This document shows positions 6,574 through 47,170 of a DNA stretch of 64,000 nucleotides, piece after piece (the stretch's first letter is position 1; the number at the start of each line of letters is the position of its first letter). The translations under genes and the position numbers were made by a program. The DNA comes from Elusimicrobia bacterium GWA2_66_18 (GTDB lineage: Bacteria > Elusimicrobiota > Elusimicrobia > UBA1565 > UBA9628), in contig MGTX01000016.1 in the NCBI GenBank assembly GCA_001799675.1, positions 9,876 through 73,875 on the forward strand, given 5' to 3'. The notes under the pieces are model-generated. The model searched no databases. It had not been told where the DNA came from and saw only the letters and a list, made by a program, of their open reading frames with translations.

Positions 6574-6577
6574 CCGC

Positions 6578-28109: not shown

Positions 28110-28880
28110 ATGCCCGGGCAACCGAACGGAGTCGCAGTCAACCTGCCGGTCCTCAACGAACGCGCAGCTCTTGAGATCGTGGTGCCCGCGATCATCCGGC
28201 AGCTCTGCGGCCGTCGACACACGCTCTGCGCCGTCGACGGTGGCTCGACGGACGGGACGGTCGAATTCCTGCGCGGCCTGGCTCAGGCCGGGGAGTCGAT
28301 CATCGTGATCGAGCGGCCCCGGCCGGGCCGGGGCTGCCAGCGCGGCGATGCTTCGCGGGCCGGGCTGGCCTGGCTCCTTGACCATACCGACCACGAGATC
28401 TTCGTGGATATCGACGGCGACGATTCTCAGCCTCCGGAGGAACTGGCTTCCGGCATCGCCATCCTCGAGTCGCCGGGCTGCGATGTGGTCATCGCGTCGA
28501 AATATGTTCGGGGTGCGGCCGTAACCGGGAGGCCGGTCGGTCGGCGGCTTGTCAGTCTCTTCTACAACGCGCTGGTCCGCGCGCTGGCAGGGACGGGACT
28601 GCGAGACCACAGCAACACCTACCGCTTCTACACGCGCCGGGCAGCCCGGCTGGCCATGCAGATCGACGCGCAGCACACGGGGCCGCTCTTCATGCTGGAG
28701 ATGCTGTTGCATTGGGTCTGCCAAGGGCTGAGCATCGTGGAGGTCCCGACTCGCTATCGGCCCCGGATCGGGGGGGAATCGAAGGTAGCCCTCGGGGACT
28801 TCGCCCTCGGCCTGTGGGGCGCGTTGCGGCTGGCGCGAAGGGCGCGGCTGCGTGGCTCTTCCATGGCGGGACGCTCCTGA
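28110..28880 (+). CDS. Family 2 glycosyltransferase (dolichyl-phosphate-mannose synthase-like)
   Basis: DGGSTDGT and DIDGDDS motifs. Start taken at ATG 28110 inside track ORF 27891..28880. The 3' end overlaps the convergent radical-SAM gene by ~127 nt. Confidence 0.65.
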   Translation: MPGQPNGVAVNLPVLNERAALEIVVPAIIRQLCGRRHTLCAVDGGSTDGTVEFLRGLAQAGESIIVIERPRPGRGCQRGDASRAGLAWLLDHTDHEIFVDIDGDDSQPPEELASGIAILESPGCDVVIASKYVRGAAVTGRPVGRRLVSLFYNALVRALAGTGLRDHSNTYRFYTRRAARLAMQIDAQHTGPLFMLEMLLHWVCQGLSIVEVPTRYRPRIGGESKVALGDFALGLWGALRLARRARLRGSSMAGRS

Positions 28881-32381: not shown

Positions 32382-34147
32382 ATCCTCCGCACGTAAGACT
32401 CCGAACGCCTGATGCCCTTGGCCATCTCCAATCCGGCCGTCAGAATTTTCCGCATCTCGGCGGGTCCAAAGGAGGAGCCCCGCGGCAACCCCAACTCGCC
32501 GCCGATAAAGGCAGTCACTTCCCGAGGGATAGCCGAAAAATCGGCCGCCAAGCCCTTCCCGTCGCGAATCAGAGCGCGGTTAAAATACGCCCAGAGGTTG
32601 TCGGGGGCCGACGCGATCACATGGTCAAGGTCCCGTATGCTCTCGTCATGCCGACCCATCACCCGGTAGACCTCGCCCCTCCATGCGCGCGCCTCGAAAT
32701 CCTTCGGGTCCAACTCGACGGCTAGATCGAGGTCCGCGAGCGCCTCATCGCGCCGCCCGAGTTTCCAAAGCGTCGCCCCGCGCCAGCCGTAGATGAAAGT
32801 CTGCGCCCCGAGCGCAACCGCCTCGTCAAGCATCTCCAGGGCCTTCTTGTACTCCCCCAGCCACAGGAATATCTCGCCGTTCCAGGTCAACACCTCCCGT
32901 CGGACGGTCGCGTCGCCGACCTTCCGGGCCCGCTCGAACTCGCGCAAGGCCTGCTCCTTATCGCCCTTGGCCAGGTAGGCCTCGGCCATGCGGCAGCGGA
33001 CCCACCAATGAGAGGGCGCGTGCCTGAGAATCCGCCGGGAGATCGCGATGGCTCCGTCGAAGTCCAGCATGCCGAGCTTGACTAAAATGCAGGACTGGCT
33101 CATCCATGAGTATCGAGGCGAGCCCGAGTCCTCGATGCTCTCATATTCGGCCATCGCCTCCTCGTCGCAGCCGCTGTCTCCAAGGAGGATGGCCCGATAA
33201 TAGGCGAACCAGCGGGAGAATTTTCCACCCTTGCTCGCGGCGCGGATGCGGCGGAGTTCCTCAGCGATGAAGCGATCCTCGACCACGGCCCGGCGGATCT
33301 CCCGCCACCACGGCCACATGAGCTGTCCGGGAGACTGAAAGCCTCCGAGTTGATCGAGCATCGCCTCGCCCAGACGGAAAGCGGCTCGATATTTCCTCGC
33401 GCACATGAGGGCGGAGAATATCTGGGGCCACTCGAGGACGAGCTTATCGGAGTGACCGGCCCGCGCCAGGCAGCCCAACAGCGCCCGTTCTACGGCGGGC
33501 GCGTAGCGCCCGAGCGCGATGAGCTCAAGAAGCGCCTCGATGCGGGAGTTTTCCGCCCCCTCCGCCCCGGCCCCGAACGCCGGGATGAGCGCCTCCTCCG
33601 CCGCCTTGAGCCGGCCCCTTGCGATCAGCACTTCCGTAAGCAGGATGCGAGCGCCCGGCTGCGGGACGACGCTGAGCACGGCGCGCATCGCCGCCTCGAT
33701 GCGATCTAGATTCTCGCCGTTTTGGATCACCCTCTCCACGAAAACGCGCCGGTACATATTAAATTCCATGAGTGCGTACAGACTCTTGCCCGCGTCCTCG
33801 CTGAAACCGCCGCGCAGTATAATGTCGCAGAGGAGATTGAGTTTACCTTCCGCCTGCGCCACCGTTTCCTTCAACACCTCGTAAGCCTCCGCCGAGCGGC
33901 CCGTCTTCTCTAGAAACCGGGAGAGTTCCACTCGCGGCAGCGGCGATGCGGGCTTAACGTCCAGGGCCTTACGGAAAACATTCTCGGCCTGCTCCAAACG
34001 CCCCCGGTTCTCCGCGATGCGCCCCAGCCAGATGAATACCTCCAAGACCGAGGTTCCGGCGGCCGCGGAGCGCCGCAAGGCCAGCGCTGCCTCCTTATGG
34101 CGTCCGGCCAGGACCAGAAGCTCGATCTCCGAAGGATCTCCATTCAT
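32360..34147 (-). CDS. TPR-repeat protein
   Basis: More than 10 tandem TPR units. Start at the second Met (ATG 34147), which gives an ATGA overlap with the upstream rSAM gene. Confidence 0.6.
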   Translation of the reverse strand: MNGDPSEIELLVLAGRHKEAALALRRSAAAGTSVLEVFIWLGRIAENRGRLEQAENVFRKALDVKPASPLPRVELSRFLEKTGRSAEAYEVLKETVAQAEGKLNLLCDIILRGGFSEDAGKSLYALMEFNMYRRVFVERVIQNGENLDRIEAAMRAVLSVVPQPGARILLTEVLIARGRLKAAEEALIPAFGAGAEGAENSRIEALLELIALGRYAPAVERALLGCLARAGHSDKLVLEWPQIFSALMCARKYRAAFRLGEAMLDQLGGFQSPGQLMWPWWREIRRAVVEDRFIAEELRRIRAASKGGKFSRWFAYYRAILLGDSGCDEEAMAEYESIEDSGSPRYSWMSQSCILVKLGMLDFDGAIAISRRILRHAPSHWWVRCRMAEAYLAKGDKEQALREFERARKVGDATVRREVLTWNGEIFLWLGEYKKALEMLDEAVALGAQTFIYGWRGATLWKLGRRDEALADLDLAVELDPKDFEARAWRGEVYRVMGRHDESIRDLDHVIASAPDNLWAYFNRALIRDGKGLAADFSAIPREVTAFIGGELGLPRGSSFGPAEMRKILTAGLEMAKGIRRSESYVRRIWMAGRS

Positions 34148-35208
34148 AATGGCGATAATTCCTCGAGCCCATAGAGATCCGCGTAAGTTTTCCACACCCC
34201 CTCGCAACGGTTACGGAAACGGCAACGAGCGCATTGCGGCGCGGCCGTCTTGAGGACGTTCTTCTTGACCTCCTGCCAGACGAATCGGTCCTGCATCGGC
34301 CCCTTCTTGGTGGCCATGCTCACATCGTTGGCTGGATCGAAGAGAGCTTCGTCGAGGTATTTCGCCGCCAGGAAGTCGCCCAGGCGGCCCGAGACGCCGG
34401 CCAACGTCAAAGCGCATCGCGGTACGCCGCCGAAGGACAGATGCCGGCCAAGCCTCTTCTCATTGAGCAGCATGATCCGAACGATCTCCGGCATGGCCTC
34501 CTTGAAGGAGGGAGTCCATGCCCGTTCGTTGCGAACGGCGCCTTGGGGCCAGATGTAATTAAAACGAATGTCGTCCAAGCCCAAGTCTCCAAAGAAGGCG
34601 ATGTATTTCTCCATCTCCCTCATAGTCGGGCGGCACAGGACCGGATTGAGCGAGATATTGTCCCTCAGACGCCCGTCACGCCTCAGGGCGAGAAGGTTTT
34701 TGACCGCCATGACCTTGCGGGAAAGATTGCCTGGAACACCCGTGATGAGCCCGTCCTCGACCTCGGGGCGGTGACTGTGGATGGAAAGGGTCGCGCGGGT
34801 GAGGCCGGCCTCGACGAGCCTGCGGCAGAAATCGGCGTCCGAGAGGCGCGTTGCGTTCGTGCAGATGGCGATGCGCTCGTAGCCGATGCCGCGAGCGCAA
34901 GCGATGCTTTCGATAATGTGCGGGTAAACGGTCGGTTCCCCCCCTAAAAAACCGGCGGCGCGGCAGCCCTTCTCGTAAAAGTGGCGGAGCTCCTCGCGAA
35001 CCCTCTCCGGGCTCGCCCAATCCTCCTGCTGATCGCGGTTGGCGCCGCTCATGCAGAATACGCAGAGGTTGTTGCAACGAGTGCCCAGGTGGACCTCGAT
35101 CCTTCGCAACTCGCCGAAAACCGCCGCCCGATTCGCTTTGTCGGAAGGAATCACCGCTCGGTCCCCTCCGGATGGATCAAAAGGGCGACGTCGGAGACGG
35201 ACTTCCAA
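34144..35208 (-). CDS. Radical SAM enzyme with SPASM/twitch-like C-terminus (rSAM-2)
   Basis: LGTRCNNLCVFC (CX3CX2C), FLGGEPT, C-terminal CARCRFRNRCEG; 354 aa. Confidence 0.8.
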   Translation of the reverse strand: MEVRLRRRPFDPSGGDRAVIPSDKANRAAVFGELRRIEVHLGTRCNNLCVFCMSGANRDQQEDWASPERVREELRHFYEKGCRAAGFLGGEPTVYPHIIESIACARGIGYERIAICTNATRLSDADFCRRLVEAGLTRATLSIHSHRPEVEDGLITGVPGNLSRKVMAVKNLLALRRDGRLRDNISLNPVLCRPTMREMEKYIAFFGDLGLDDIRFNYIWPQGAVRNERAWTPSFKEAMPEIVRIMLLNEKRLGRHLSFGGVPRCALTLAGVSGRLGDFLAAKYLDEALFDPANDVSMATKKGPMQDRFVWQEVKKNVLKTAAPQCARCRFRNRCEGVWKTYADLYGLEELSPL

Positions 35209-36848
35209 TGGATGCGCCGCAAGGCCTTCATCCAGCTTCCGGCCGGCAATGTACGCACCTCGTTGGCATAGGGAAACTTGGACTTGGGAACCTTGGTCAT
35301 GTCAAAGAAAAGGCTGATGCTCCGATCAGCGTCAAGCTTCGCGACGGACCGCAAGCATTCCTCGATCGAACTCTTGTTGAGAAAAACAACGACCGGCTCA
35401 TCCTTGCGCAGCAGAGCGTCGCGCAGCCGTTCGACGTCAGCGGCCACGAAAAAAATAAACCGAAACGATTTCGTCTTTGGCTCAAGCATCCAGTCGTAGC
35501 CGCTCAAAGACAGCAAGGTCGTCAGGGCCGAAGCGCCGGCCAGCGGCGTGATCTCGACCCCTCGGGACCGAACCTCGCGCACCAGCCAACCGCCGGGATC
35601 GGAAAAGCATGGGGCGCCGCCGGAAGAGATAACCCCCGCATCTTCTCGACGCAGGACTTCGAAAACCCGTTTTAAGAAGCCCTCATCGCGACGGATCGGG
35701 ATCGTCAGGAACTCTTTGTCGGAGCAATCGAGGCGCAATATCTCGCTCATCTGAGAACAAGCCTCGTCCGCGTCTTCCGCGAAAAAGACGCGAAGGCGGC
35801 GCGCCGCGCGCAGGGTATTGAGCGTCACGTCGCCTCGATCTCCTATGTGCCACGGAATCAGAACCAGCGCGCGTGCTTTTGTCGGAAGCTTGGCGCCCGA
35901 CGAGGCTTGGCTGGTCGGCGGCATAAATTCCCTCCATCCTCTTCTTTCGACATAACCTCTAAAGACGCCCTCGCAGCCGTCCGACCAGGGGCAGACGCGG
36001 CAAGGTTCGCCCTTCATTTTCTCACGACGCACATCGCAATAAATATTCCTCTCAGAACCTTCATTGGAGGCCTGGAAAACGTCCTTATTCAAGCGCGGGC
36101 AGACCGCCCGTGCATGCCGCGGCAGGACGCAGGGGGGCACGTCGATCACGGAATGGTTGATTCCCCGCGTCCGGCCGCGGTCGAGTCCCTTCGAAAGAGG
36201 ATCGGCTATGTCGGCAAAATGAGGAACGATCAGATCGAAGGCGTCCGACATGTAGCCTTGTATCCTGGGGAAATAAAGATTGTGCCGCTGCACTCCTTGG
36301 TCGGCGACGAAATCCATGATGTGGTCAAGGCGCGCGGCCGTTAACGGAGTCATGACCGTATTGATGGAAAACTGACAGGCGGCCTTCTTCTCCTCCATGA
36401 GGCGGAGGACGTTCGCTATGGCGGCGACCTTATTCTTGAAGCTGGCGGGATTACGCGTAATGGCCGCTTCCGCCTCGCTCGAATCGCTATGCAGCGAGAT
36501 CGTCAGTTTATTGATGCCGCTGTCAAGAAACAGGGCCGCCTTCCCATCATTCGCGAAGACCTGCCCATTGGTAACGAGATGAATCATGTGAAAACCCAGG
36601 CCGCGGGCATGCTGGAATATCTTGACGGCATCGGCACGCAGCGTGAATTCCTTGGAACTGATTTCCAAACCGTCGTACCCTTGATGCCGAGACTCGTCAA
36701 GTTTCCGCATGATCTGCCGGGTGGTCAAGACGGGGAGATCTCCCAGAACGTCGCCGCAGAATATGCACTGATTACAACAACGGTTGGAGAGGGAGAGATC
36801 TAGGACCTTCACTGCTGCAATGACTGCGAAGGAAGGGATCTGCTTCAT
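35151..36848 (-). CDS. Fusion protein: radical SAM/SPASM domain plus tetrapyrrole-methylase-superfamily (RsmI/CobA-like) domain
   Basis: Starts at MKQIPSF (ATG 36848..36846), after discarding 114 low-complexity codons of the track ORF. N-terminal CCNQCIFC and SPASM-like CRVCPWSDGCEG. C-terminal ~230 aa with LIPWHIGDRGDVTLNTLRAARRLRVFFAEDADE...SSGGAPCFSDPG...ITPLAGASAL, matching the TP_methylase fold. Confidence 0.7.
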   Translation of the reverse strand: MKQIPSFAVIAAVKVLDLSLSNRCCNQCIFCGDVLGDLPVLTTRQIMRKLDESRHQGYDGLEISSKEFTLRADAVKIFQHARGLGFHMIHLVTNGQVFANDGKAALFLDSGINKLTISLHSDSSEAEAAITRNPASFKNKVAAIANVLRLMEEKKAACQFSINTVMTPLTAARLDHIMDFVADQGVQRHNLYFPRIQGYMSDAFDLIVPHFADIADPLSKGLDRGRTRGINHSVIDVPPCVLPRHARAVCPRLNKDVFQASNEGSERNIYCDVRREKMKGEPCRVCPWSDGCEGVFRGYVERRGWREFMPPTSQASSGAKLPTKARALVLIPWHIGDRGDVTLNTLRAARRLRVFFAEDADEACSQMSEILRLDCSDKEFLTIPIRRDEGFLKRVFEVLRREDAGVISSGGAPCFSDPGGWLVREVRSRGVEITPLAGASALTTLLSLSGYDWMLEPKTKSFRFIFFVAADVERLRDALLRKDEPVVVFLNKSSIEECLRSVAKLDADRSISLFFDMTKVPKSKFPYANEVRTLPAGSWMKALRRIHWKSVSDVALLIHPEGTER

Positions 36849-36864
36849 CGTGCCGCCGGCTCGT

Positions 36865-38142
36865 CTATTCAATTGAGCCACGCCACCTTCGGCACGCGGA
36901 CAGTTCGCCGGCCATTCGGTCCACGAAAGCCAGGAATCCGTTGAAGCCCAGGAAGGGCCTCTCATAGAGGGCGTGCTGGCGGTAGCTGGGGAATCCGAAC
37001 TCCAGGGTCGCGGCCGCCGTCGACAGGCCATCCTGCTCGTGCCAGGAGGAGACGAAGAGGTCCAGGGACGATTGAAGCAGCCGGGACACTTCCTCCGACT
37101 GAGTGAACGGCTCGTAAAGGACGACGCCGTCCTCGCGCACCCCGCCGTGAGCCCGTCGACCCCGTACGATTGTGCCGGCAACCGAAACACCGAGGTCCTC
37201 GGCGATGTCGAGAAAACCGTCCGCCAGGTAAGGATCGCCCATGAAGGCCATCCGCCGGTGAAGGAAGAGATGAGGCACGATCTTCTGCAGGCGCGGCATC
37301 AGGCGAGACAGCTCTTGGTCGATGAAGTCCTCCGCCTGCGCCGAGCGTCCCGTCGCCTCGGCCACGGCGCGCAGGAATCCGAGCGTCTTAGGGATGCCGA
37401 AGGGAAGTTCGGCCTCGACGAGCCGCGCGCCGGTCGTCTGAGCCAGACGCCGCGCGGCGGCGCGGCCGTACGGTAAAGAGACGATGACCTCGGCCTGCGA
37501 GGCTTTCTTGAGGTCGGCGGCGTTCCTGCCTTCGAGCCAAATCGAGGCCGTCTTCAGTCCCAGAGCCCCCAACAGCCGTCGGATCTCGACGAGGTTGGCG
37601 GCATGGTCGCCCTCGTTGCGATCCATGAAATAGCCGACGACGGCGGCGCAGCCGGAGCGGCGGCTTCCTTGCGCGACTCCCAGCCCGCGGGCAAGGCTGT
37701 TCAACGTCTGCGCGTAGCCGTCAAGCCAGTCTCCGACCAGCGAGTCCGGCGGGATGTCGATGGCCGGCTTCCTGAGGCGCCCGCCGGAGGGGCGGAGCAG
37801 ACGGCCGTAATCGACTCCGGTGATCGAGCACATCGGCAGGGCCGTCACCAGGACGAGACCTGAGTCGTCGATGCCGTCAAGCGTTTTGAGCTGACGCCGG
37901 ATGACGTCGTCGTGCTCCTTGACGACTCCGCGCGAACAAACATTGGTGAAGGCCACGCGGTGACGTCCATTGGAGCGCAAAAGAGTGGAGTTCAAGTCAT
38001 GACGGCCGTGGATAAAATGGGCCTTATAAAGCGTGCAGTCGGGACCGTCGACCAAGACGTACGCGTCTCGAATGGCGTTGACGGCGAGATAAACTCCGAG
38101 AAGGGTAGGGTAATTCATCGGGCGTCCGGAATTGGCGGCCAT
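36865..38142 (-). CDS. Nitrogenase component-1-like protein, NifK/NifN/BchB-like (set A)
   Basis: 425 aa. N-terminal LLGVYLAVNAIRDAYVLVDGPDC block typical of the Oxidored_nitro family. Paralogous to 42368..43651 and 47171..48394. Confidence 0.6.
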   Translation of the reverse strand: MAANSGRPMNYPTLLGVYLAVNAIRDAYVLVDGPDCTLYKAHFIHGRHDLNSTLLRSNGRHRVAFTNVCSRGVVKEHDDVIRRQLKTLDGIDDSGLVLVTALPMCSITGVDYGRLLRPSGGRLRKPAIDIPPDSLVGDWLDGYAQTLNSLARGLGVAQGSRRSGCAAVVGYFMDRNEGDHAANLVEIRRLLGALGLKTASIWLEGRNAADLKKASQAEVIVSLPYGRAAARRLAQTTGARLVEAELPFGIPKTLGFLRAVAEATGRSAQAEDFIDQELSRLMPRLQKIVPHLFLHRRMAFMGDPYLADGFLDIAEDLGVSVAGTIVRGRRAHGGVREDGVVLYEPFTQSEEVSRLLQSSLDLFVSSWHEQDGLSTAAATLEFGFPSYRQHALYERPFLGFNGFLAFVDRMAGELSACRRWRGSIE

Positions 38143-40443
38143 TTAATCCGCTCCCACGTAACGCGCGTAGCGCCGATGAAACGGCCACCGGCAAATCCGG
38201 TTGAGACTCTCGAGCGTGCGCAGCGCCCCCACGGCGCCCATCTCGAAGAGATCGAGCGAGAATTGGGATTTCCCGGCCCGCGCCAGCCTCGGGTCGGACG
38301 CATACTCCGAATAGACCGCCTCGAAACGGCCGCCCGCCAGCAGCGCCTCGAGATGCTCGGGGGTCTTGAAGAACGACAAGTGGGGAGACTCTCGTCCCGC
38401 TTGGCCGTAACACAGAACGTGGACCGCGAACCCCATCTCCCTGAGCAGGCGCAACAGCGGGATTCCCCACATCTGGGACGCGTCGGTCAGCCGTCCCGCG
38501 TGATGAGAGTCCACGACGAAGGCCAAGGCATGGCCGTTGGCCTCCCGCCGAGCGCGGTCCCAATCGCCGGATATCTCCCCGAAGGACTTCTCGAAAGCCG
38601 CGCGGACTTGGCGTTGGCGTCCGAACTCGCCGGCGACTCCCTTGAGCCAGGTCTTCGTCGCCTCCGGGCCGTAGGGCGCGGCGAGTCTCAGAGAACGGAT
38701 CGGCATCGGCGCGAAGAACTCGCGATAGGTCTCTTCGTAGGCGCCGTTCGGGTAGAGGACCTGGACCGGCGCCGCGAGGTAGCTCCGGGCGGCGTCCAAA
38801 TTCAGGAACGGCATCACGCGCGCTCGGACCTCCACGCCGGCCGCCTCCAGCAGGCGCACGACTTCCAGAAGGCTCCGGTTTTCCGGGAAACCCACCAGAT
38901 TGATTGCGCGCCTGCGCCGCCTGACCTTGGCAAAGGAAGGACTGTCGCGCATCTTCTTGAACAACTCAAGCCCCACGTCGGTGCATCCGCCGTTCTCGGC
39001 CGGATTCGAGTAAACGATGGGGACCTTCGTGCGCTCCTGCCAGCGCGCCGCCACCGCCGTCGCGTCGTCGCCGATCACCGTCGGGATGCAGGTCGAATGG
39101 ACGACGATCGCATCCGCACCGTCATGGCTCACCGCTTGGCCGAGGGCCTCGTCGAGCTTGCGGCCCCCGCCGTGGATGACGTCGATGTCCCTCAGGTCCG
39201 TCATGATCTCGCCGCCCGGCTCCTCGCCCGGCTCTTCGCCCGACTCTCCGCCCGGCGCGCAACCGGCATCCTGGCGCGGCCATGGAAACTTAAAGAAGGA
39301 CGGCAGGCTCGCGTCGTAGTAATCCGGAGTGGAGTAGGCGCATTCCAGATCCTGATGCCGGACGTCGATCGTAGCGGCCCTTATCTCCAAATGCCTCTTG
39401 GCGTGACGGCGAGTCTCGAAATCGCAGAAAAAGCGACGCCACTGATCCTCACTCCCCCAGACCTGGGAATTCTGGCCCGGATTGTTGTCCCAAAGAGACG
39501 CCTGCCAGGATAAATCCGCCTCGACATCCGGCCCCCTCTCCGGTCTTTGTTCCCCTGAGCGCCGCTCAACCGGTTGAGGGAGCGACGAAACGGACGGGCG
39601 CTCCGACGGCGCCTGAGGAACGTCGATGAAAGCTCTCCGGGACGACTCATGGAACTGCTCGTCTGTAATAGGAGAGGGGACCTTCGCGGTGGTACGGTCG
39701 AATTTCCACAGTTCCTGCGCCAGCAAACTTACGCGTCGCGACATCTCAGCGTCGGGGGCGTGTTCGACAAGGGTCCGGCGCCGATACTCCGCCTCACGGA
39801 CGGCGGCCTCTCGAGTAAAAAAAGAGAGGACCTTCGTCCCGATCAGCGCCGCCAGGCGCTCGACGGCCTTGATATCGGCCCCCGGGTCGCGGAGATTGGC
39901 GACCAGACCGCAGAGGGCGACGCCGTTGGCGCTGTAATTGCGGATGGCGCGGGCGATATTGTTTGCCGCATAGAGGGCCATGAGCTCTTCGGACGTCACG
40001 ATGACGACCTTGTCGGCAAATCCTTGCCGCAGCGGGGCCGCGAACCCCCCGCAGACGACGTCTCCCAGGACGTCGAAGAGCGCAACGTCATAGCGGTCCT
40101 CCCGCAGGATTCCCGCCCCCTCCAACAGTTCGATCATGCGCGAGATTCCTCTCCCCGCGCAGCCGATGCCTGGTTCCGGCCCCCCCGCCTCGATGCAGTC
40201 GACGCCCAGCCTGCCTCGCACCAGAATCTGGGAAAGATCTGATCCACGCGAGTCCATGAAGGCCGACTGCTCGACGACGGTGCGGATGGGTTTGCCGTCC
40301 GTCAGAGCGACGGTCGTGTCGTGCTTGGGATCGCACCCGACGAGGAGGACCCGCTTCCCCTGCCGGGCATAAACGGCCGCGAGGTTGGCCGACAGCGTGG
40401 ACTTGCCGATGCCGCCCTTGCCGAAGATCGTTATCCGTTGCAT
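38143..40443 (-). CDS. Fusion of NifH/BchL-like ATPase with a NifD/NifE/BchN-like component-1 domain (set A)
   Basis: N-terminal FGKGGIGKST, CDPKHD, GIGCAGRGI (cluster Cys) and DVLGDVVCGGFAAP (cluster Cys). An acidic/Gly-rich linker follows, then a ~420-aa domain with the IVVHSTCIPTVIGDD block paralogous to the standalone NifD-like genes; 766 aa. Confidence 0.8.
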   Translation of the reverse strand: MQRITIFGKGGIGKSTLSANLAAVYARQGKRVLLVGCDPKHDTTVALTDGKPIRTVVEQSAFMDSRGSDLSQILVRGRLGVDCIEAGGPEPGIGCAGRGISRMIELLEGAGILREDRYDVALFDVLGDVVCGGFAAPLRQGFADKVVIVTSEELMALYAANNIARAIRNYSANGVALCGLVANLRDPGADIKAVERLAALIGTKVLSFFTREAAVREAEYRRRTLVEHAPDAEMSRRVSLLAQELWKFDRTTAKVPSPITDEQFHESSRRAFIDVPQAPSERPSVSSLPQPVERRSGEQRPERGPDVEADLSWQASLWDNNPGQNSQVWGSEDQWRRFFCDFETRRHAKRHLEIRAATIDVRHQDLECAYSTPDYYDASLPSFFKFPWPRQDAGCAPGGESGEEPGEEPGGEIMTDLRDIDVIHGGGRKLDEALGQAVSHDGADAIVVHSTCIPTVIGDDATAVAARWQERTKVPIVYSNPAENGGCTDVGLELFKKMRDSPSFAKVRRRRRAINLVGFPENRSLLEVVRLLEAAGVEVRARVMPFLNLDAARSYLAAPVQVLYPNGAYEETYREFFAPMPIRSLRLAAPYGPEATKTWLKGVAGEFGRQRQVRAAFEKSFGEISGDWDRARREANGHALAFVVDSHHAGRLTDASQMWGIPLLRLLREMGFAVHVLCYGQAGRESPHLSFFKTPEHLEALLAGGRFEAVYSEYASDPRLARAGKSQFSLDLFEMGAVGALRTLESLNRICRWPFHRRYARYVGAD

Positions 40444-40454: not shown

Positions 40455-42371
40455 TTAGTGACGACGTGGCGGGACGCGGGAGGCGCGTTCTTTCGCTTCC
40501 GAAATCTGCCGGCCGCTCATCCGGGAACCCAACGTCTCCATGGACCGGCGGGCCTTCTCATGCCCTTGCGCCGAAGCGAGGAGGTACCACTTGTAGGCTT
40601 CCACGTGGTCTTGAGGCACGCCGCCTCCGGACTCGCAGAGAAAACCCAACGCCGCCTGGGCGTCCATGCTGCCTTGCTCGGCGGCTTTTCTGTACCAGAA
40701 AAAGGCGCTGGCTTCGTCCTTCGCGACGCCCTGGCCTCCCGCGTACATGAACCCCAGATTGTTTTGAGCTCGGGCGTCCCCGCGACCTCCGGCCTTGTGG
40801 TACCATCGCGCCGCTTTGGCGTAATCGCGCGTCACGCCGTCGCCGTTGTAATAGATGTTCCCCGCGTTGAACTGGGCCTCGGTCTTCCCCGCCCGGGCGG
40901 CCCCCAGGAACCACTTCAGAGCCTTGCCATAATCCCTCCGGTCGTAATACATGACCCCCAGATTGTTCTGCGCGTCGATATCGCCTTGAGCGGCGGCCTT
41001 GTTGTACCAAACGATGGCCTTGGAGGAATCCTGCCTCACCCCCCGGCCGAAACTGTACATCTCTCCAAGTCGGTATTGAGCGAGGGGGTCGCCCTTCGTG
41101 GCGGCTGAAAAAAACGATTCGAGAACCTGTTCGTATCGACCGTTCTTGTAAGCGGCGTCGGCCTCCCCAAGAGTGGCGGCCCAAGAGGTCCCTGCTGCGC
41201 AGACGACCGCGATCAAAAGGATCGCAATCCTGCGGAATGCGCGGAGCCCCTTTGGGACGGGGATCATCGCCGCGAAGCCCTTCTCGCGGATCTCCCGCAC
41301 GCTCATCCCGCCGCAGCGCGCCTCCAGGGCGCAACCACGGCATTGCGACGCCTTCAGGAAGTAACGGGACTCGATGTAGAACCGGGCGAAGGAGAAGATG
41401 TCGGGCTTCTTGCCGAAACGGAAGGGCTCCGCCTTCCCCTCCGGGCGCAGGCAGAGAGGGCCGACCTTGGCCGGCAGGCGGCCGTCCTTGACGCACAGAG
41501 CGAGGTCGCTGCAGAAATCCCGGAGGAAACAATGCCGGCAGGCGTCTCCGGAGCAGCTGGGATATCTCCCCGCATTGAGGTAGCGCGCGAAGATGCGCCG
41601 GCGGCCGCGGACCTCATCGAGGATCTTCGCCGGCGGCTGGATGAGGGATTCAAAATCCTCCAGATGCTCGGGCCTCAGGCGGTTGGTCCAGATGTGCAGA
41701 TCGGGACGGCGGCTGAGCTCGAGCGCGCGATGGAGGCGCGCCAGGTTCTCCGGCCGGGAGAAGTCGCAATGGAGCTCCGAACGGTTCTTCCAGGCATCGC
41801 CGAAGGGGACCAGGGCCAGCAAGTCGAACTCCCCGACTCCCAGGCCGATGCAGAAGTCGAGATGCTCGCGCAGGACAGGCAGGTTCAGCTTGTTGATGAC
41901 GACATCCACGCTCACGATAAGCCCCGGAGTGGCTACCGCAGCCCGCAGGCCCGAGAGCGCCTGGACGAAAGATCCGGGGACCTGAGTCAACCGGTCATGC
42001 AGGGCGGGCGTGTTGCCGTGCAAGGAGAAGGTGACCTCCTTTAAGCCCGCCGCGACGGCCCTCTTGAGGAAATCGGGATAGCAGAACCTGCGGCCGTTGG
42101 TAATCGTCTGGATATGAGTGTAGCCCAGTTCGCGCGCCAGCTCCACGATCTCGATAAACTCGGGGTGGATGGTGGCTTCGCCGCCGCTGAGCACCACGCG
42201 GCGCAGCCCCTGTTTGAGGCCGGTGAGCAGGGATCTCCTCAGGGACGCGAGCGGGACGACGCCTCCGGTCTGCGCGAAACGGTCCAGGCAGAAGATGCAG
42301 CGCTGGTTGCAGTACCGGGTGAGCCGGACCCAGTGCCGTTTTTCGTAAGCGCCTTCTCCGTTGTCGCTCAT
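40455..42371 (-). CDS. Radical SAM/SPASM enzyme fused to a TM helix and C-terminal Sel1-like repeats
   Basis: Starts at MSDNGEGAY (ATG 42371..42369). RYCNQRCIFC, SGGEAT, and SPASM-like CRHCFLRDFC and CRGCALEARCGG. Then a hydrophobic helix (IAILLIAVVCAAGTSWA) and about seven Sel1 repeats (AQYRLGEMYSFGRGV...). Confidence 0.75.
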   Translation of the reverse strand: MSDNGEGAYEKRHWVRLTRYCNQRCIFCLDRFAQTGGVVPLASLRRSLLTGLKQGLRRVVLSGGEATIHPEFIEIVELARELGYTHIQTITNGRRFCYPDFLKRAVAAGLKEVTFSLHGNTPALHDRLTQVPGSFVQALSGLRAAVATPGLIVSVDVVINKLNLPVLREHLDFCIGLGVGEFDLLALVPFGDAWKNRSELHCDFSRPENLARLHRALELSRRPDLHIWTNRLRPEHLEDFESLIQPPAKILDEVRGRRRIFARYLNAGRYPSCSGDACRHCFLRDFCSDLALCVKDGRLPAKVGPLCLRPEGKAEPFRFGKKPDIFSFARFYIESRYFLKASQCRGCALEARCGGMSVREIREKGFAAMIPVPKGLRAFRRIAILLIAVVCAAGTSWAATLGEADAAYKNGRYEQVLESFFSAATKGDPLAQYRLGEMYSFGRGVRQDSSKAIVWYNKAAAQGDIDAQNNLGVMYYDRRDYGKALKWFLGAARAGKTEAQFNAGNIYYNGDGVTRDYAKAARWYHKAGGRGDARAQNNLGFMYAGGQGVAKDEASAFFWYRKAAEQGSMDAQAALGFLCESGGGVPQDHVEAYKWYLLASAQGHEKARRSMETLGSRMSGRQISEAKERASRVPPRRH

Positions 42372-43651
42372 GCGCCTTCCGCCTGCGCCGCTTGCTCGGC
42401 CACGGAAGGCGGCTGTTCCTGGTTCATGCCCCGCGAGACCTCGTTGGCCACGCGCGACAGGAAGCCCAAGGCGCCCTGAAATCCCAGGAACGGCTCGTCG
42501 CGCAGGAAGTGAGTGTCTTCCGAGGGATATCCGAACTCCAGCCACTTCGGACCGCGGTGGACCTGGGAGAAGGCAAACGCGCTGCCGACGATAAGATCCG
42601 CCCCTCCCTCCCGGCGCGCGAGTTCGCCCCATCGCTCGCGGATCTCGCTGGGAAGCGGTTCGAAGATCGTGCCCGGGCGGCGCTCCAGGGACTGTCTCTG
42701 GGCCTCAGGAAGATGATAGGCCCCTCCGATCACGATCGTGCCCGCGATCCTCCCTCCCAGGTCCTCGATCTGTTCGGCGAAGCAGAGCGCGTAATGAGGG
42801 TCGCCGGAAAAGGCGAAAGTCCGGTTCAAGAAGACGTGGGGCACGCTCCACGCCAGGCGAGGCGCCACTTCGTCGAGCTCGGCGGCGATGAAGGCCTGCG
42901 CCTGATCCTCGCGGCCGAACTCCCGGCCGAGGAGATCGACGAAGCGCCGGGTCGCCTCCAGGCCGAACGGCAGACCCGCCTCGATGAGTCGCGCGCCCAG
43001 GCGTTTCGACAGGATCTTCGCGGCCTTGCGGCCGTAGGGCATCGAGACGACGGCTGCGGCCCGGCGCACGTCGCGCAGACGTTCGTAGGGCCGGCCGGAC
43101 AGCCAAATCGAGACGGGCTCCAGGCCCAACGCCCGGACGATCCGCTCGAGTTCCTTGAGGTTGCCCAGATGGTCGCCTTCATTGCGGTCCATCAAATAGC
43201 CCACGAGGGCGACGTTCCGGGACTTCGGCTTGGCGCCCGAAAGGTCCATGCCGGCCGCCATCGCCTCCATGATCGAAGCGTAGCCGTCCAGCCAATCGCC
43301 CGACACGGCGGAACGCCGCGGCATGGTGAAGGAGGGCTTGTCGGACCCGGCCAGGGCCTCGCGTAGGATGCGGTCGTAATCCGTGCCGACGATGGAGCAC
43401 ATCGGCATCGAGCCCATGAAGACCACGCCGCAGTCGGGAAAGGCCGCCATGCGCCGCAAGGAGGCGGCGATGTCGCCTTCGCAGTCCCCGGCGATGTTGA
43501 AGACGTTGACCCCCGTGTGCTGAATCCGGTGGCGGCTGTCGCAGGACAAGAGCGTCGAGAAGAGATCGTGACGGCCGTGGATGTGCGCGGCCTTGTCGAA
43601 AATGCAGCTGGGACCGTCGCCCAAAAAGAATGCGTCCGGAACGGCGTTCAA
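42368..43651 (-). CDS. Nitrogenase component-1-like protein, NifK/NifN-like (set B)
   Basis: 427 aa, paralog of 36865..38142 (shared blocks WLDGYA, MDRNEGDH, ERPFLGF). Confidence 0.6.
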   Translation of the reverse strand: MNAVPDAFFLGDGPSCIFDKAAHIHGRHDLFSTLLSCDSRHRIQHTGVNVFNIAGDCEGDIAASLRRMAAFPDCGVVFMGSMPMCSIVGTDYDRILREALAGSDKPSFTMPRRSAVSGDWLDGYASIMEAMAAGMDLSGAKPKSRNVALVGYLMDRNEGDHLGNLKELERIVRALGLEPVSIWLSGRPYERLRDVRRAAAVVSMPYGRKAAKILSKRLGARLIEAGLPFGLEATRRFVDLLGREFGREDQAQAFIAAELDEVAPRLAWSVPHVFLNRTFAFSGDPHYALCFAEQIEDLGGRIAGTIVIGGAYHLPEAQRQSLERRPGTIFEPLPSEIRERWGELARREGGADLIVGSAFAFSQVHRGPKWLEFGYPSEDTHFLRDEPFLGFQGALGFLSRVANEVSRGMNQEQPPSVAEQAAQAEGA

Positions 43652-43700: not shown

Positions 43701-45392
43701 CTATGCGATATAGCTGACTCCGCGCGGCCCGGCCAGATGGGAGGCGTAGCGACGGAAGAACGGCAGACGGCAGATGGAGAGGAGTTTCTGGAAAGTCCGC
43801 ATCGCGCCGCCTAGGCCCATCTCGAAATCCTTGCTGGCGAAGCGCGCCTTGCCGGCCCTCATGACGCGCCAGTCGAAGACGACGTCCGAGTAGACGGCGC
43901 GAAAGCCCCCCTCGCGCAGGGCCCGCTCCAGCTCCCAAGGAGTTCTGAAGATCGTCACGCGCGCGTCCTCGAGTCCGGCCGGGAGCTTGGGTCCGGCGCC
44001 GTGGAGGTCGTAGAAAAGGATGTCGACGGCGAACCCCATCTCCCGCGCCATCTTCGCCAGAGGCGCGCCGTGCCCGTAACGCAAGGTCATCAGGCGCGGC
44101 AAGGTCGCCTCCGAGGCGACGAAGGCGAGGCTGTAGCCCGACGCCTCCTTTTTCATCGCTTCCCAGGCGGGCAGAAAATTCACGGTCGCCTCGGCCCAGG
44201 CCGCGGCGAACTCAGGCTCCCTGCCGGCGGCGACGGCGATGCCCCTCAGGCACTCGCGCGTCCCCTCGACGCCGTAGGGAGCGCGCACGGAGATGACCGG
44301 GCGGGAGGTCTGAGCCAGGATCTCATGGACCTTGGTCGGGTAAGAACTCCGCTCGCAGAAGATCTGCCAGACCGCCTTGGGCAGGTCGTCGAGGACGGAG
44401 AGGCTGACGTCGGGCAGAACGCAGATGTTGGTCTTGAGGCCGAGCTTCTTCAAGAAGGGGAGAAGCTCGGAGTCGCGATAGCTGGGCGGGAAATGGAAGA
44501 GGTTGACGGCCAGGGCGTCGGCCGGCGCGTCGAAGAAGCCGGGACGTCCCAACAAGGCGCGGAAATGCTCCCCGAAGTTGTCGTTCTCGTCGCGGTCCTT
44601 CTGGCTCCAGCGCACCGAGGTTCCTCCGACCTCAGCCTCGCAGCGCCGCGCCAATCCCTGGAAGTCCTCTCCCATGATGATGGGCGTGCACAGATGGGTG
44701 AAGAGGAGGTAGTTCCCGGTCTTGGCTCGCTTGCGGACCTCGGCCACCAGGGCGTCGGCCCTCTCGCCGGTGCCCATGATCATGTCGCGTTCGGCGAGTT
44801 CGGTCACGATGGAGGAATCACGGCCGTCGCCGCTCGACCCGCTCTCGCTCTCCTGGGGCCAATCCAGGAAGGTCCACTTTTTGAAGCTGCGATGAGGCCG
44901 AGCATAATAGCACTCGAGATCGGCATACTCGATGTTCACCGTATGCGGGTCGGAACACGAGGGCACTCCCAACAGAACCTCGAAGTCCTGGTCCGCGTAG
45001 AAGTTGCGCCAGCCAGCCTCCAGAAGTCCGATGGGCTGGCCGATGCAGGGGACCTTGACGCGGTCGCCGTCCTGGCCGGGCACGACGTCTTCGACGAAGG
45101 ACCGGGGATCCTCCTCGAGCATGCGGGCGACGCTCTCGAAACGGCGGGATCCGAGCCGCGCGGCCGCGACTTCGAGGAACTTCATGACGGCCGTTCCGGC
45201 GTCGCCTTCCGCTCTCAACGAAAGACCGGGTGCCGAAAGCTGCGCCCCGGGCGCGTTGCGGGGCAGGAGATGGAAGACCAGGCGATGATCGCCGTGGCGC
45301 AGACGCAGGCAGATGTTCTCCTTGCCCAGCCCGCAAAGCCCTTCCAGCCGCCATCCCTTCCGCGGGGCCTTGAGGCCCAGCAGGGCCCCCAT
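43701..45392 (-). CDS. Nitrogenase component-1-like protein, NifD/NifE-like (set B)
   Basis: Paralogous to the C-terminal domain of the 38143..40443 fusion (LFTHLCTPIIMGED vs IVVHSTCIPTVIGDD; C-terminal FEMG...ICRLPFFRRYA). Start uncertain: the track ORF runs to 45887, but that region overlaps the upstream nifH-like gene. Confidence 0.6.
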   Translation of the reverse strand: MGALLGLKAPRKGWRLEGLCGLGKENICLRLRHGDHRLVFHLLPRNAPGAQLSAPGLSLRAEGDAGTAVMKFLEVAAARLGSRRFESVARMLEEDPRSFVEDVVPGQDGDRVKVPCIGQPIGLLEAGWRNFYADQDFEVLLGVPSCSDPHTVNIEYADLECYYARPHRSFKKWTFLDWPQESESGSSGDGRDSSIVTELAERDMIMGTGERADALVAEVRKRAKTGNYLLFTHLCTPIIMGEDFQGLARRCEAEVGGTSVRWSQKDRDENDNFGEHFRALLGRPGFFDAPADALAVNLFHFPPSYRDSELLPFLKKLGLKTNICVLPDVSLSVLDDLPKAVWQIFCERSSYPTKVHEILAQTSRPVISVRAPYGVEGTRECLRGIAVAAGREPEFAAAWAEATVNFLPAWEAMKKEASGYSLAFVASEATLPRLMTLRYGHGAPLAKMAREMGFAVDILFYDLHGAGPKLPAGLEDARVTIFRTPWELERALREGGFRAVYSDVVFDWRVMRAGKARFASKDFEMGLGGAMRTFQKLLSICRLPFFRRYASHLAGPRGVSYIA

Positions 45393-45466
45393 CGACGCCA
45401 GCGCCCGCGGACCCGCCGAGATGTGCCGAACCGTCGGCGGGACCTTCGCTTCTCGTCCAGGGATCT

Positions 45467-46297
45467 TCACCACGGCTGGTAGAACCGGCGGTCGTCCATC
45501 GGCGTCGGAACGGGGCAATCCTGCTTGCGAATGGCGAGGATCTTCGCGGCGAGCGCTTTGATGCTCTTGGCGAACGGCGACTTGGGAGCGCGCTCTACGA
45601 CGGTGTTCTTGCGGGCGAACTCCGCCTCGCGCACGGCCGGGTCGCGCGGCACGAACTCCAGGATGCGCGTGCCGAGGATCTTGGCGAAACGCTCGATGCG
45701 CCCGCGTTCCACCTTGCCGTCCTTGAGGTTGGCCACCAGGCCCGCGAGATAAACCCCGTTCGAAGCGTAGGTCTTGACCGACTTGGCGATGTTGTTGGCG
45801 GCGTAGAGCGCCATCAGCTCCTCTGAGACCACGATCACGATCTTCTCCGCGAAGCCCTTGCGCAGAGGCGCGGCGAAGCCTCCGCACACCACGTCTCCGA
45901 GGACGTCGAAGACCCGGGCGTCATAGCCCCCCTCCTTCAGGACTCCCAGGTCCTGGAGCGCTTCGAGCATCAGGGAGATCCCGCGCCCCGCGCAGCCCAC
46001 CCCCGGCTCCGGCCCGCCGGCCTCGACGCAGTCGATGCCGAGGCGGCCCTTGACCATGAGGTCGGAAGTCTTGAGTTCTCCATGATCGCGCACGCCGAAG
46101 ATGCGGGCGTACTTCTCCATGAAGGTCTCTATGAGCTCGCCATCAACGAGTCCCAGCGTGGAATCATGCTTGGGGTCGCAGCCGACATGGAGCACCTTGA
46201 GGCCCTGGAGGGCGTAGATCGAGCTCAGGTTCGAGGAGATGGTCGACTTGCCGATTCCGCCCTTGCCGAAGACGACGATGTTGTTCTGCATGCTCAC
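45467..46297 (-). CDS. NifH/BchL-family Fe-protein-like ATPase (copy 2)
   Basis: FGKGGIGKST, CDPKHDST, GVGCAGRGI, DVLGDVVCGGFAAP; 276 aa. Confidence 0.85.
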   Translation of the reverse strand: MSMQNNIVVFGKGGIGKSTISSNLSSIYALQGLKVLHVGCDPKHDSTLGLVDGELIETFMEKYARIFGVRDHGELKTSDLMVKGRLGIDCVEAGGPEPGVGCAGRGISLMLEALQDLGVLKEGGYDARVFDVLGDVVCGGFAAPLRKGFAEKIVIVVSEELMALYAANNIAKSVKTYASNGVYLAGLVANLKDGKVERGRIERFAKILGTRILEFVPRDPAVREAEFARKNTVVERAPKSPFAKSIKALAAKILAIRKQDCPVPTPMDDRRFYQPW

Positions 46298-47166: not shown

Positions 47167-47170
47167 GGCC

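What the first reader, a model, noticed from the sequence alone, without database searches (positions are those of the whole stretch)
38143..40443. NifH-like Fe-protein fused in cis to a NifD-like catalytic-component domain (two independent copies)
In all characterised nitrogenase-like systems the ATP-dependent reductase (NifH/BchL/BchX/CfbC) is a separate homodimer that docks transiently on the catalytic component. Here a full NifH-like domain, with an intact P-loop and both [4Fe-4S] Cys ligands, is covalently joined through an acidic Gly/Glu/Pro linker to a NifD-like domain. The same architecture recurs at 62086->end. A cis-fusion implies fixed stoichiometry and a different docking geometry, and it is a useful signature for finding homologous loci.
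Basis: seen in the sequence. Interest (0 to 1): 0.75.

Follow-up and report, generated by a model that had tools for sequence, protein, structure and literature searches.

The report
Natural NifH–NifD-like fusion, Group VI
A real, conserved gene in an uncultured Elusimicrobia genome joins the ATP-driven electron-donor protein of a nitrogenase-like enzyme to one catalytic subunit by a floppy tether; the arrangement is common in this uncharacterised enzyme family and was briefly noted in 2012, so it is useful rather than new.

Summary
The ORF 38143..40443 (-) is an uninterrupted 766-aa protein. It has a complete NifH-type domain (res 1-272), a disordered Pro/Ser/Arg/Glu-rich linker of about 54 aa (273-326), and a NifD/NifE-like domain (327-766). 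A NifK/N-like gene follows directly. It is not an assembly artefact. The same sequence occurs in at least 5 assemblies, and more than 110 distinct fused homologs exist, from 80% down to 35% identity.

The acidic Gly/Glu/Pro stretch (res about 389-413) is a lineage-variable loop inside the D-like domain.

The second copy (62087->end) is real. It carries a 5' homopolymer frameshift, and just beyond the window its partner gene is broken.

The locus is a Group VI nitrogenase-like cluster (Méheust 2020) with four H/D/K systems and many radical-SAM genes. Its substrate is unknown.

[quoted passage not shown] I also found them in Methanosarcina, Bathyarchaeia, Methanomassiliicoccaceae and Peptococcaceae. 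No fused system has been characterised.

The most likely mechanism is a tethered Fe-protein domain that dimerises and docks conventionally, giving one H2 dimer per (HD)2K2.

Verdict: new member of a known kind, moderate interest.

The parts
38143..40443 (-). F1: single ORF of 766 aa, a NifH-like domain fused to a NifD/E-like domain. Strong SD (GAGGGGGAG) precedes the ATG at 40443.
39628..40443 (-). NifH-type ATP-dependent reductase domain (res 1-272). Contains the P-loop, switch I and II, the [4Fe-4S] ligands Cys95 and Cys131, the docking residue Arg98, and the canonical C-terminal P.P...F motif.
   Evidence: Foldseek TM 0.85-0.91 to Fe proteins
39466..39627 (-). True inter-domain linker (res 273-326). 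It is Pro/Ser/Gln/Glu/Arg-rich, variable in length and sequence among homologs, and predicted to be disordered.
   Evidence: (pLDDT <50 at 276-305 and 317-330)
38146..39465 (-). NifD/NifE-like catalytic-component domain (res 327-766). Invariant Cys368 (H....C motif) and Cys452 (aligns to NifD Cys154); Cys339 is variable. Pro565 sits at the position of the FeMo-co ligand Cys275.
39205..39279 (-). Acidic Gly/Glu/Pro insert (res 389-413) inside the D-like domain. It is a lineage-variable, disordered loop.
36865..38142 (-). K1: NifK/N-like partner of 425 aa. Its ATG directly abuts the F1 TAA. Cys36 is invariant among K homologs.
62087..64000 (+). F2: second H-D fusion (768 aa in full, cut by the window end). 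It is a paralog of F1 with 57% identity in H and about 30-32% in D.
62062..62097 (+). 5' lesion of F2. The ATG at 62062 opens MIARTPEKFVFFR*, out of frame with F2. One T fewer in the T8 run (62090-62097) would restore an N-terminus matching ortholog P0077.
45467..46297 (-). H3: free-standing NifH-like gene of 276 aa. Its stop overlaps the start of D3 (GTGA).
43701..45470 (-). D3: unfused D-like gene of 589 aa with an N-terminal extension of about 150 aa. It represents the split state of the same H-D pair type.
42368..43651 (-). K3: K-like partner of D3.
46294..50112 (-). Fourth system: D-like X5 (48382..50112), K-like X4 (47171..48439) and NifH-like H4 (46294..47166).
28754..37190 (-). Accessory genes downstream of K1. 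These are radical SAM fused to an RsmI-like methylase (within 35151..37190; the true start is probably after 36865), radical SAM (34144..35208), two TPR proteins, and radical SAM (28754..30337).
40455..42632 (-). Radical SAM protein with Sel1 repeats, immediately upstream of F1.

Best explanation
F1 is a natural single-chain version of two components of a Group VI nitrogenase-like (NFL) enzyme. It combines a fully competent NifH-type ATPase/[4Fe-4S] reductase domain with the alpha-like (NifD/NifE-like) subunit of the catalytic component. The two are joined by a flexible tether of about 54 residues. The NifK/N-like subunit K1 is co-translated from the next gene.

Proposed mechanism:
- Shown: the domain content, the intact motifs, the disordered tether, and the conserved gene order.
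- Inferred: two HD chains and two K chains form an (HD)2K2 core.
- Inferred: the two tethered H domains dimerise around one bridging [4Fe-4S] cluster (Cys95 and Cys131 from each).
- Inferred: the dimer binds MgATP and docks in the conventional Fe-protein manner on a D/K interface.
- Inferred: it passes an electron to a simple inter-subunit Fe-S cluster. The ligands would be D Cys368 and Cys452 (plus Cys339 in F1) and K Cys36, which is a NifEN/DPOR-like 3+1 pattern and not a P-cluster plus FeMo-co.
- Inferred: the electron then goes on to an unknown organic substrate made by the surrounding radical-SAM enzymes. The literature proposes a tetrapyrrole; this window gives no specific support for that.

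Tethering raises the local concentration of the reductase. It also fixes the ratio at one H2 dimer per D2K2, which matches the 1:1 complex seen for nitrogenase during turnover.

The state is evolutionarily labile. The same cluster holds a split version (H3/D3, with a GTGA overlap), and fused and split forms alternate across clades.
For: - The ORF is continuous and both Pfam domains are present.
- The H-domain catalytic, cluster and docking residues are invariant over 23 homologs down to 35% identity. The H-domain fold matches Fe proteins at TM 0.85-0.91.
- The linker and the acidic insert are the only long low-confidence segments of the AlphaFold model. Linker length across 108 fused homologs has a minimum of 45 aa and a median of 62.5 aa.
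- A K-like gene directly follows the fused gene here and in L001, L002, L003, L005 and L007.
- Cys452 aligns to NifD Cys154, and NifD Cys275 aligns to a near-invariant Pro. Only one Cys is invariant in K.
- All matches to the NifH, CfbC, BchL, BchX, NifD and NifE equivalog models fall below their curated cut-offs.
- Close homologs come from the Elusimicrobia genomes on which Group VI was defined, such as GWA2_69_24 and RBG_16_66_12. The neighbourhood is rich in radical-SAM genes.
- Fused and unfused states are interleaved in an H-domain tree. Of the best 150 D-domain representatives, 20 are fused.
- PDB 7ut9 is a 1:1 FeP:MoFeP complex captured during turnover (title).
Against: - There is no biochemical or structural data for any fused NFL.
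- The oligomeric state, H-domain dimerisation and docking were not modelled. Only a monomer was predicted, with pTM 0.54, so the relative orientation of the domains is undefined.
- One H2 per D2K2 is half the occupancy possible in classical 2:1 complexes.
- The equivalences of Cys368 to Cys88 and Cys339 to Cys62 rest on motif and spacing, not on an alignment.
- The substrate is unknown. The 'TP_methylase' domain in the cluster is RsmI-like, and no tetrapyrrole pathway gene lies in the window.
- The second copy appears to be decaying in this genome, so the fused form is not under uniform selection.
Confidence: 0.6

Rival explanations
1. The fusion is an assembly, sequencing or gene-calling artefact, for example a lost stop or a frameshift between adjacent nifH-like and nifD-like genes.
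For: Adjacent H3 and D3 in the same window differ from a fusion only by a 1-nt frame offset (GTGA overlap). This shows how easily such an artefact could arise. One Myxococcales MAG (L003) has H and D in different frames.
Against: - The sequence is identical in at least 5 assemblies from NCBI, ENA and JGI.
- More than 110 distinct fused homologs at 35-80% identity all keep one frame through a linker that varies in length and sequence.
- GC3 stays at coding level.
Confidence: 0.01
2. The fused H domain is not the catalytic electron donor. Instead it is a built-in maturase or insertase, or the whole HD/K unit is a NifEN-like scaffold. In that case the free NifH-like proteins H3 and H4 would do the catalytic reduction.
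For: - The best curated-model match of the D domain is NifE (TIGR01283, E 7e-15) rather than NifD (E 8e-6).
- Dos Santos 2012 described such fusions as nifH-nifE-like plus nifN-like.
- NifH is known to act with NifEN in cofactor maturation (established knowledge).
- Two free NifH-like genes lie in the cluster.
Against: - The gene count is 4 H to 4 D/K pairs, so each pair has its own H and none is spare.
- No NifB or FeMo-co ligands are present, so there is no complex cofactor to mature (PMC13474568).
- The NifE match is far below its cut-off (54 versus 505 bits).
Confidence: 0.15
3. The tethered H domain pairs with a free NifH-like protomer (H3 or H4), or with an H domain from another tetramer. 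This would give heterodimeric reductases or higher-order filaments, rather than an intramolecular H2 within one (HD)2K2.
For: - H3 is 54% identical to the F1 H domain, with the same cluster ligands.
- H3 and H4 are adjacent genes.
- There is only one H per D/K, so the partner has to come from another chain in any case.
Against: - The fused clades (F1-type 72 of 79, F2-type 25 of 25) are conserved as fusions in genomes whose clusters differ in their content of free H.
- There is no direct evidence either way.
Confidence: 0.15
4. The fusion is a neutral by-product of tight operon packing (loss of a stop between translationally coupled genes), and tethering has no functional consequence.
For: - Fused and split states are scattered across clades.
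- Independent fusions occur in archaea and Firmicutes.
- Only 20 of the 150 best D-domain representatives are fused.
- F2 is decaying here.
Against: - Two whole clades keep the fusion down to about 35% identity.
- Linker length never falls below about 45 aa, which suggests selection on a working tether.
Confidence: 0.09

Closest known systems
Group VI nitrogenase-like (NFL) systems of groundwater Elusimicrobia, Gracilibacteria and Myxococcales (Méheust et al. 2020, ISME J / bioRxiv 10.1101/765248; reviewed in PMC13474568 section 7)
   Same: - Same organisms: homologs come from GWA2_69_24, RBG_16_66_12 and GWF2_62_30.
- Several H/D/K copies per genome.
- The NifH-like part keeps the ATP-binding motifs and Cys97/Cys132.
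- The D and K proteins are highly divergent, with few P-cluster cysteines and no FeMo-co ligands.
- Many adjacent radical-SAM genes.
- The function is unknown.
   Different: The texts and supplement legends I could search do not mention that many Group VI H and D genes are one ORF. The tetrapyrrole hypothesis finds no specific support in this window.
[quoted passage not shown] 2012, BMC Genomics 13:162, 'data not shown'; 'fused nifH/nifE' in Ca. Methanomassiliicoccus intestinalis, Borrel 2014)
   Same: Identical architecture and gene order: an H-D/E fusion followed by K/N. I confirmed examples in Methanosarcina sp. KYL-1 (797 aa), Peptococcaceae (741 aa), Bathyarchaeia (731 aa) and Methanomassiliicoccaceae (706 aa).
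   Different: - Those proteins have a canonical, full-length Oxidored_nitro match (E 1e-59 to 1e-75, against 2e-27 here).
- Their H domains form a separate clade near the root of my tree, so they probably arose from independent fusion events.
- Those fusions are also uncharacterised.
Nitrogenase Fe protein/MoFe protein and NifH/NifEN
   Same: - Fe-protein fold and all nucleotide, cluster and docking residues.
- The Cys154-equivalent ligand and the H....C motif in D.
- The alpha/beta-type gene pair.
   Different: - H and D are covalently joined.
- All matches fall below the equivalog cut-offs.
- The Cys275 position holds Pro.
- There are no NifB, NifE or NifN accessory genes in the window.
DPOR (BchL/ChlL + BchNB), COR (BchXYZ) and CfbCD
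   Same: These are ATP-dependent NifH-like reductases paired with a NifDK-like component that carries a simple inter-subunit [4Fe-4S] cluster. The 3+1 ligand pattern resembles DPOR and NifEN.
   Different: - Their reductase is a separate homodimer.
- Sequence matches are weak and below cut-off (BchL 195 versus 345 bits; CfbC 274 versus 402 bits).
- Their substrate is known; here it is not.

Membership tests
NifH/Fe-protein-type reductase domain (Pfam PF00142) | Walker A GKGGxGKS, switch I (DPKxD), switch II (DxxGDVVCGGF) | tested here: met
   Invariant in the 23-sequence alignment. Pfam E 1e-79 against a gathering cut-off of 25 bits.
NifH/Fe-protein-type reductase domain (Pfam PF00142) | Two Cys per protomer that bridge a [4Fe-4S] cluster (Av Cys97 and Cys132) | tested here: met
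   Cys95 and Cys131 are invariant. The match to Av NifH covers res 1-266.
NifH/Fe-protein-type reductase domain (Pfam PF00142) | Homodimer carrying a redox-active cluster; ATP-dependent electron transfer | not testable with these tools
   Needs biochemistry or multimer modelling.
Nitrogenase component-1 type subunit (Pfam PF00148), NifD/E-like | Domain match above the gathering score; Cys154-equivalent ligand in the C.P..IGDD motif | tested here: met
   96 bits against a cut-off of 28.6. STC452IPTVIGDD aligns to SECPIGLIGDD of real NifD and to NTCVPALIGDD of NifE.
True nitrogenase (Nif/Vnf/Anf HDK) | FeMo-co ligand Cys275 in the alpha subunit | tested here: not met
   In the profile alignment to four NifD sequences, Cys275 aligns to Pro565, which is conserved in at least 90% of sequences.
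True nitrogenase (Nif/Vnf/Anf HDK) | Scores above the NCBIfam equivalog cut-offs for nifH, nifD and nifK | tested here: not met
   nifH 279 versus 394 bits; nifD 25 versus 654 bits.
DPOR / COR / CfbCD | Scores above the equivalog cut-offs (BchL, BchX, CfbC, BchN, BchB) | tested here: not met
   BchL 195 versus 345 bits; BchX 170 versus 331; CfbC 274 versus 402; K1 to BchB 37 versus 490.
Group VI NFL (Méheust 2020) | Close full-length homologs in the Elusimicrobia lineage IV/V genomes on which the group was defined | tested here: met
   P0060 (GWA2_69_24, 45% identity, 99% coverage), P0039 (RBG_16_66_12) and P0055 (RIFCSPLOWO2_12_FULL_59_9). The paper names GWA2_69_24.
Group VI NFL (Méheust 2020) | Several nifH/D/K-like copies next to many radical-SAM genes, with no NifB/E/N accessory genes | tested here: met
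   There are 4 H, 4 D and 3 K genes (plus K2 beyond the window) and at least 6 radical-SAM genes in 28-64 kb. The absence of NifB was checked only within the window.
Group VI NFL (Méheust 2020) | NifH branches outside groups I-V, as sister to group V | tested here: inconclusive
   My NJ tree separates these H domains from canonical NifH, but it holds no group IV or V references.
Previously noted nifH–nifE-like fusions (Dos Santos 2012) | Single ORF with H followed by D/E, then a K/N-like gene | tested here: met
Previously noted nifH–nifE-like fusions (Dos Santos 2012) | Common descent with the archaeal and Firmicutes fusions | tested here: inconclusive
   The H domains of L039, L062 and L076 form a separate clade from the F1 and F2 clades in a crude NJ tree without support values.

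The most novel reading that the evidence does not exclude
Tethering could be a mechanistic adaptation. On this reading an obligate (HD)2K2 machine has a single internal Fe-protein dimer that swings between the two catalytic halves (alternating sites), or the H domains dimerise between tetramers to build filaments. Four such paralogous reductases, together with at least 8 radical-SAM enzymes, would then build a highly reduced cofactor or natural product of a kind not yet known, not necessarily a tetrapyrrole.
Probability: 0.15. Interest if true: 0.75.

Novelty: new member of a known kind. Interest (0 to 1): 0.42.

Why it matters
In every studied member of the nitrogenase superfamily, the transient and ATP-gated docking of the Fe protein is the hardest step to study. 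A natural single-chain reductase–catalytic subunit offers three things: a fixed 1:1:1 stoichiometry, a built-in high local concentration, and a ready construct for cryo-EM of docking states.

The fused clades also give a clean sequence signature for Group VI NFL clusters. I found fused genes in cultured strains (Pseudenhygromyxa sp. WMMC2535 and Methanosarcina sp. KYL-1), where the unknown chemistry could be tackled genetically.

The finding does not reveal a new kind of system.

Tried and rejected
1. Artefact hypothesis: rejected on multiple assemblies and more than 110 fused homologs.
2. Acidic G/E/P stretch as the linker: rejected by the alignment and by the unfused paralog D3.
3. The approximately 150-aa N-terminal extension of unfused D3 as a homolog of the long (150-180 aa) inter-domain regions of some fused proteins: BLAST found it only in unfused D3-like proteins.
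4. The genome-contig scan was swamped by ordinary nifH genes, because both search patterns were NifH motifs. Only about 10 of the 80 loci were informative.
5. The Foldseek search of the whole model returned only Fe-protein hits in the first 50, so it gave no view of the D domain.
6. NCBIfam and Pfam scans of the accessory genes gave only generic radical-SAM, TPR and Sel1 matches below cut-off. They give no substrate clue. The TP_methylase domain is RsmI-like, not a tetrapyrrole methylase.
7. Literature searches for a characterised natural NifH–NifD fusion found none.
8. The ISME J version (PMC7785019) is not held, so its figures, including Fig. S6, which may draw the fused genes, could not be inspected.
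Full report
**Observation**

The minus-strand ORF 38143..40443 translates into 766 residues without a stop. Pfam places Fer4_NifH at residues 2-265 (E 1e-79) and Oxidored_nitro at 414-682 (E 2e-27). A strong Shine-Dalgarno sequence (GAGGGGGAG) precedes the ATG. The TAA stop is followed directly by the ATG of a 425-aa Oxidored_nitro protein, K1 (36865..38142). A second fused gene starts at 62087 on the plus strand and runs off the window. Other assemblies show that it is 768 aa long.

**Not an artefact**

- The window is identical over 16,964 nt to GCA_003485795.1 (DNHR01000005).
- The same genes are present in GCA_001799875.1, in two ENA assemblies and in a JGI metagenome.
- The protein is 100% identical to an NCBI entry from an Elusimicrobia MAG.
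- The 120 best database matches are almost all proteins of 750-1100 aa that carry both Pfam domains. They range from 80% down to about 31% identity. Most come from Elusimicrobia, but they also include Pseudenhygromyxa sp. WMMC2535 and a Deltaproteobacteria MAG.

**Where the junction really is**

I aligned 23 fused proteins.

- The NifH part is highly conserved. It ends with the canonical C-terminal P.P...F....F motif near residue 272.
- A segment variable in length and sequence follows, at residues 273-326 in F1. Its sequence is IDVPQAPSERPSVSSLPQPVERRSGEQRPERGPDVEADLSWQASLWDNNPGQNS.
- The D-like domain then starts with a conserved W..QWR.F block and the invariant E367-C368.
It is absent from many homologs. 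It has a counterpart (ESESGSSGDGRDSS) at the same place in the unfused paralog D3.
- The AlphaFold2 model (mean pLDDT 77.6, pTM 0.54) is confident for both domains. Confidence is below 50 at 276-305, 317-330 and 375-409, which correspond to the linker and the acidic loop.
- Across 108 fused homologs the inter-domain spacer is never shorter than 45 residues, and the median is 62.5. Smaller classes cluster near 150-180 and 250-340 residues.

**Domain competence**

The H domain keeps every functional residue I could check:
- GKGGIGKS (P-loop);
- CDPKHD (switch I);
- Cys95 and Arg98, equivalent to Av Cys97 and Arg100;
- DVLGDVVC131GGF (switch II);
- Arg139.

The modelled H domain superposes on solved Fe proteins with a target-normalised TM-score of 0.85-0.91.

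For the D-like domain:
- STC452IPTVIGDD aligns to the Cys154 motif of NifD and NifE.
- The H363....C368 motif matches HGPVGC88 by pattern and spacing. This is an inference, not an alignment.
- Cys339 is present in F1 but replaced in the F2 class.
- The FeMo-co ligand Cys275 of real NifD aligns to a near-invariant Pro.

Among K-like partners only Cys36 is invariant. This points to a simple inter-subunit Fe-S cluster in a NifEN/DPOR-like 3+1 pattern. It agrees with what the 2026 review says of Group VI. Every match to a curated NCBIfam model (nifH, CfbC, BchL, BchX, nifE, nifD, BchB, BchN) falls below its cut-off.

**Context**

The window holds four H/D/K systems:
- X5 (D-like), X4 (K-like) and H4;
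- H3, D3 and K3;
- F1 and K1;
- F2, whose partner K2 lies beyond the window.

They are embedded among at least six radical-SAM genes, TPR and Sel1 proteins and a methyltransferase. H3 and D3 overlap by GTGA. GC3 shows that D3 is coding from that start. D3 is therefore the split state of the same type of pair and carries its own N-terminal extension of about 150 aa.

This matches the 'Group VI' nitrogenase paralogs of groundwater Elusimicrobia. Those have several H/D/K copies, many radical-SAM neighbours and no NifB, and they were proposed to reduce a tetrapyrrole (Méheust 2020; review). I found no tetrapyrrole-specific gene in the window. The TP_methylase domain fused to a radical-SAM gene is RsmI-like.

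**How common and how old is the fusion**

- A search with the D domain alone against 1.84 billion representatives gave 717 relatives, 266 of them at E<=1e-30.
- Of the best 150, 20 carry NifH motifs. Most of the rest are unfused proteins of 570-630 aa with an N-terminal extension.
- I built a crude NJ tree of 248 H domains, without support values and with a sample biased by my queries. It shows an F1-type clade (72 of 79 fused), an F2-type clade (25 of 25 fused), an H3-type clade (63 of 71 unfused) and a clade of 330-385-aa H proteins with a C-terminal tail.
- The fused proteins of Methanosarcina sp. KYL-1, Methanomassiliicoccaceae and Peptococcaceae form a separate clade near the root, and the Bathyarchaeia fusion branches separately near them.
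- Fusion or fission therefore seems to have happened several times.

**Literature**

Dos Santos et al. [quoted passage not shown] They excluded these NifHD/E fusions from their trees. Borrel 2014 labels a 'fused nifH/nifE' gene. Neither the Méheust text and supplement legends nor the 2026 Chemical Reviews article mentions a fusion. No characterised fused system turned up.

**Mechanism**

Shown: the domain content, the intact motifs, the disordered tether of at least 45 aa, and the conserved HD-then-K order.

Inferred:
- An (HD)2K2 assembly forms, in which the two tethered H domains make one [4Fe-4S]-bridged dimer.
- That dimer docks conventionally on a D/K face and, on ATP hydrolysis, passes electrons to an inter-subunit Fe-S cluster and then to an unknown substrate.
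- One H2 per D2K2 resembles the 1:1 complex captured for nitrogenase during turnover (PDB 7ut9, title).
- A 'different docking geometry' is not indicated.

Rivals considered: a maturase or scaffold role, H pairing with free H3 or H4 or between tetramers, and a neutral fusion.

**Second copy**

F2 starts at a TTG that leaves only three residues before the P-loop. An upstream ATG (62062) opens MIARTPEKFVFFR* in another frame. That peptide matches the N-terminus of ortholog P0077 (MISRTPEKLVFFGKGG). One T fewer in the T8 run at 62090-62097 would restore it. The T8 run is identical in five assemblies.

Beyond the window, F2 lacks about 13 residues near its C-terminus relative to P0077. K2 has an in-frame stop followed by a frameshift. 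System 2 is probably decaying in this genome, although its orthologs (71-73% identity) are intact.

**Verdict**

The fusion is real and conserved, and it is mechanistically suggestive. It belongs to a described though uncharacterised family, and the architecture has been noted before. I rate it a new member of a known kind, with an interest score of about 0.4.

Noticed in passing
window 62062..62097 (+): The 5' end of the second fusion gene looks frameshifted. The ATG at 62062 opens MIARTPEKFVFFR*, which matches the N-terminus of ortholog P0077. A T8 run (62090-62097) puts it out of frame with the rest of F2, leaving a TTG start only 3 residues before the P-loop. The T8 run is identical in 5 assemblies, so it is a real mutation, possibly rescued by the TTG start or by slippage.
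   Followed up: partly
L081:17350-18671 (same genome, just beyond the window end; window equivalent about 64386..65707): K2, the partner of the second fusion, has an in-frame stop after residue 310. Its conserved C-terminal block (MEFGFPSFFHHAL...) continues in another frame. F2 also lacks about 13 residues near its C-terminus relative to P0077. System 2 appears to be turning into a pseudogene.
   Followed up: partly
window 43701..45470 (-) and 48382..50112 (-): The unfused D-like proteins (D3 and X5) carry an N-terminal extension of about 150-200 aa with no Pfam or NCBIfam match. Most unfused relatives (570-630 aa) have the same extension, and it is absent from the fused proteins. Its role is unknown; it might replace the tethered H domain as a docking aid.
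   Followed up: partly
proteins P0313-P0370, e.g. Byssovorax sp. P0368: There is a large clade of free-standing NifH-like proteins of 340-375 aa with a C-terminal tail of about 80-90 aa. The fused Pseudenhygromyxa protein P0097 falls in the same clade. The tail may be a remnant or a precursor of the tether.
   Followed up: no
window 45467..47166 (-): Two NifH-like genes (H4 and H3, 42% identical) lie back to back with overlapping stop and start. They belong to the two flanking D/K pairs, so the operon reads D-K-H-H-D-K.
   Followed up: partly
window 35151..37190 (-): A radical-SAM domain is fused to a PF00590 'tetrapyrrole methylase' domain whose best curated match is RsmI (16S rRNA 2'-O-methyltransferase), not a tetrapyrrole methylase. 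The listed ORF start overlaps K1, so the true start is probably downstream of 36865.
   Followed up: partly
L081:21591-22946 (beyond the window): The cluster continues with more radical-SAM genes and an 1181-aa protein that combines carbamoyltransferase (Carbam_trans_N/C, TsaD-like), ferredoxin and radical-SAM domains. This hints at a complex small-molecule product.
   Followed up: no
window 3729..7948: A corrinoid-dependent methyltransferase set (MttB-family methyltransferase, B12-binding protein, Met_synt_B12-like activation domain) sits next to an amino-acid permease. A DDE transposase fragment lies at 2386..3786. These appear unrelated to the NFL cluster.
   Followed up: no
L039:9995-12388 (Methanosarcina sp. 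KYL-1), L006:10001-12196 (Bathyarchaeia), L062:9697-11817, L076:3046-5271: Fused NifH + full-length Oxidored_nitro ORFs occur in archaea and in a Peptococcaceae MAG. In L039 and L062 a 433-aa ORF follows the fusion directly, and the L039 one was confirmed as a K/N-like Oxidored_nitro protein. Methanosarcina sp. KYL-1 appears to be a cultured strain and so a possible experimental system.
   Followed up: partly
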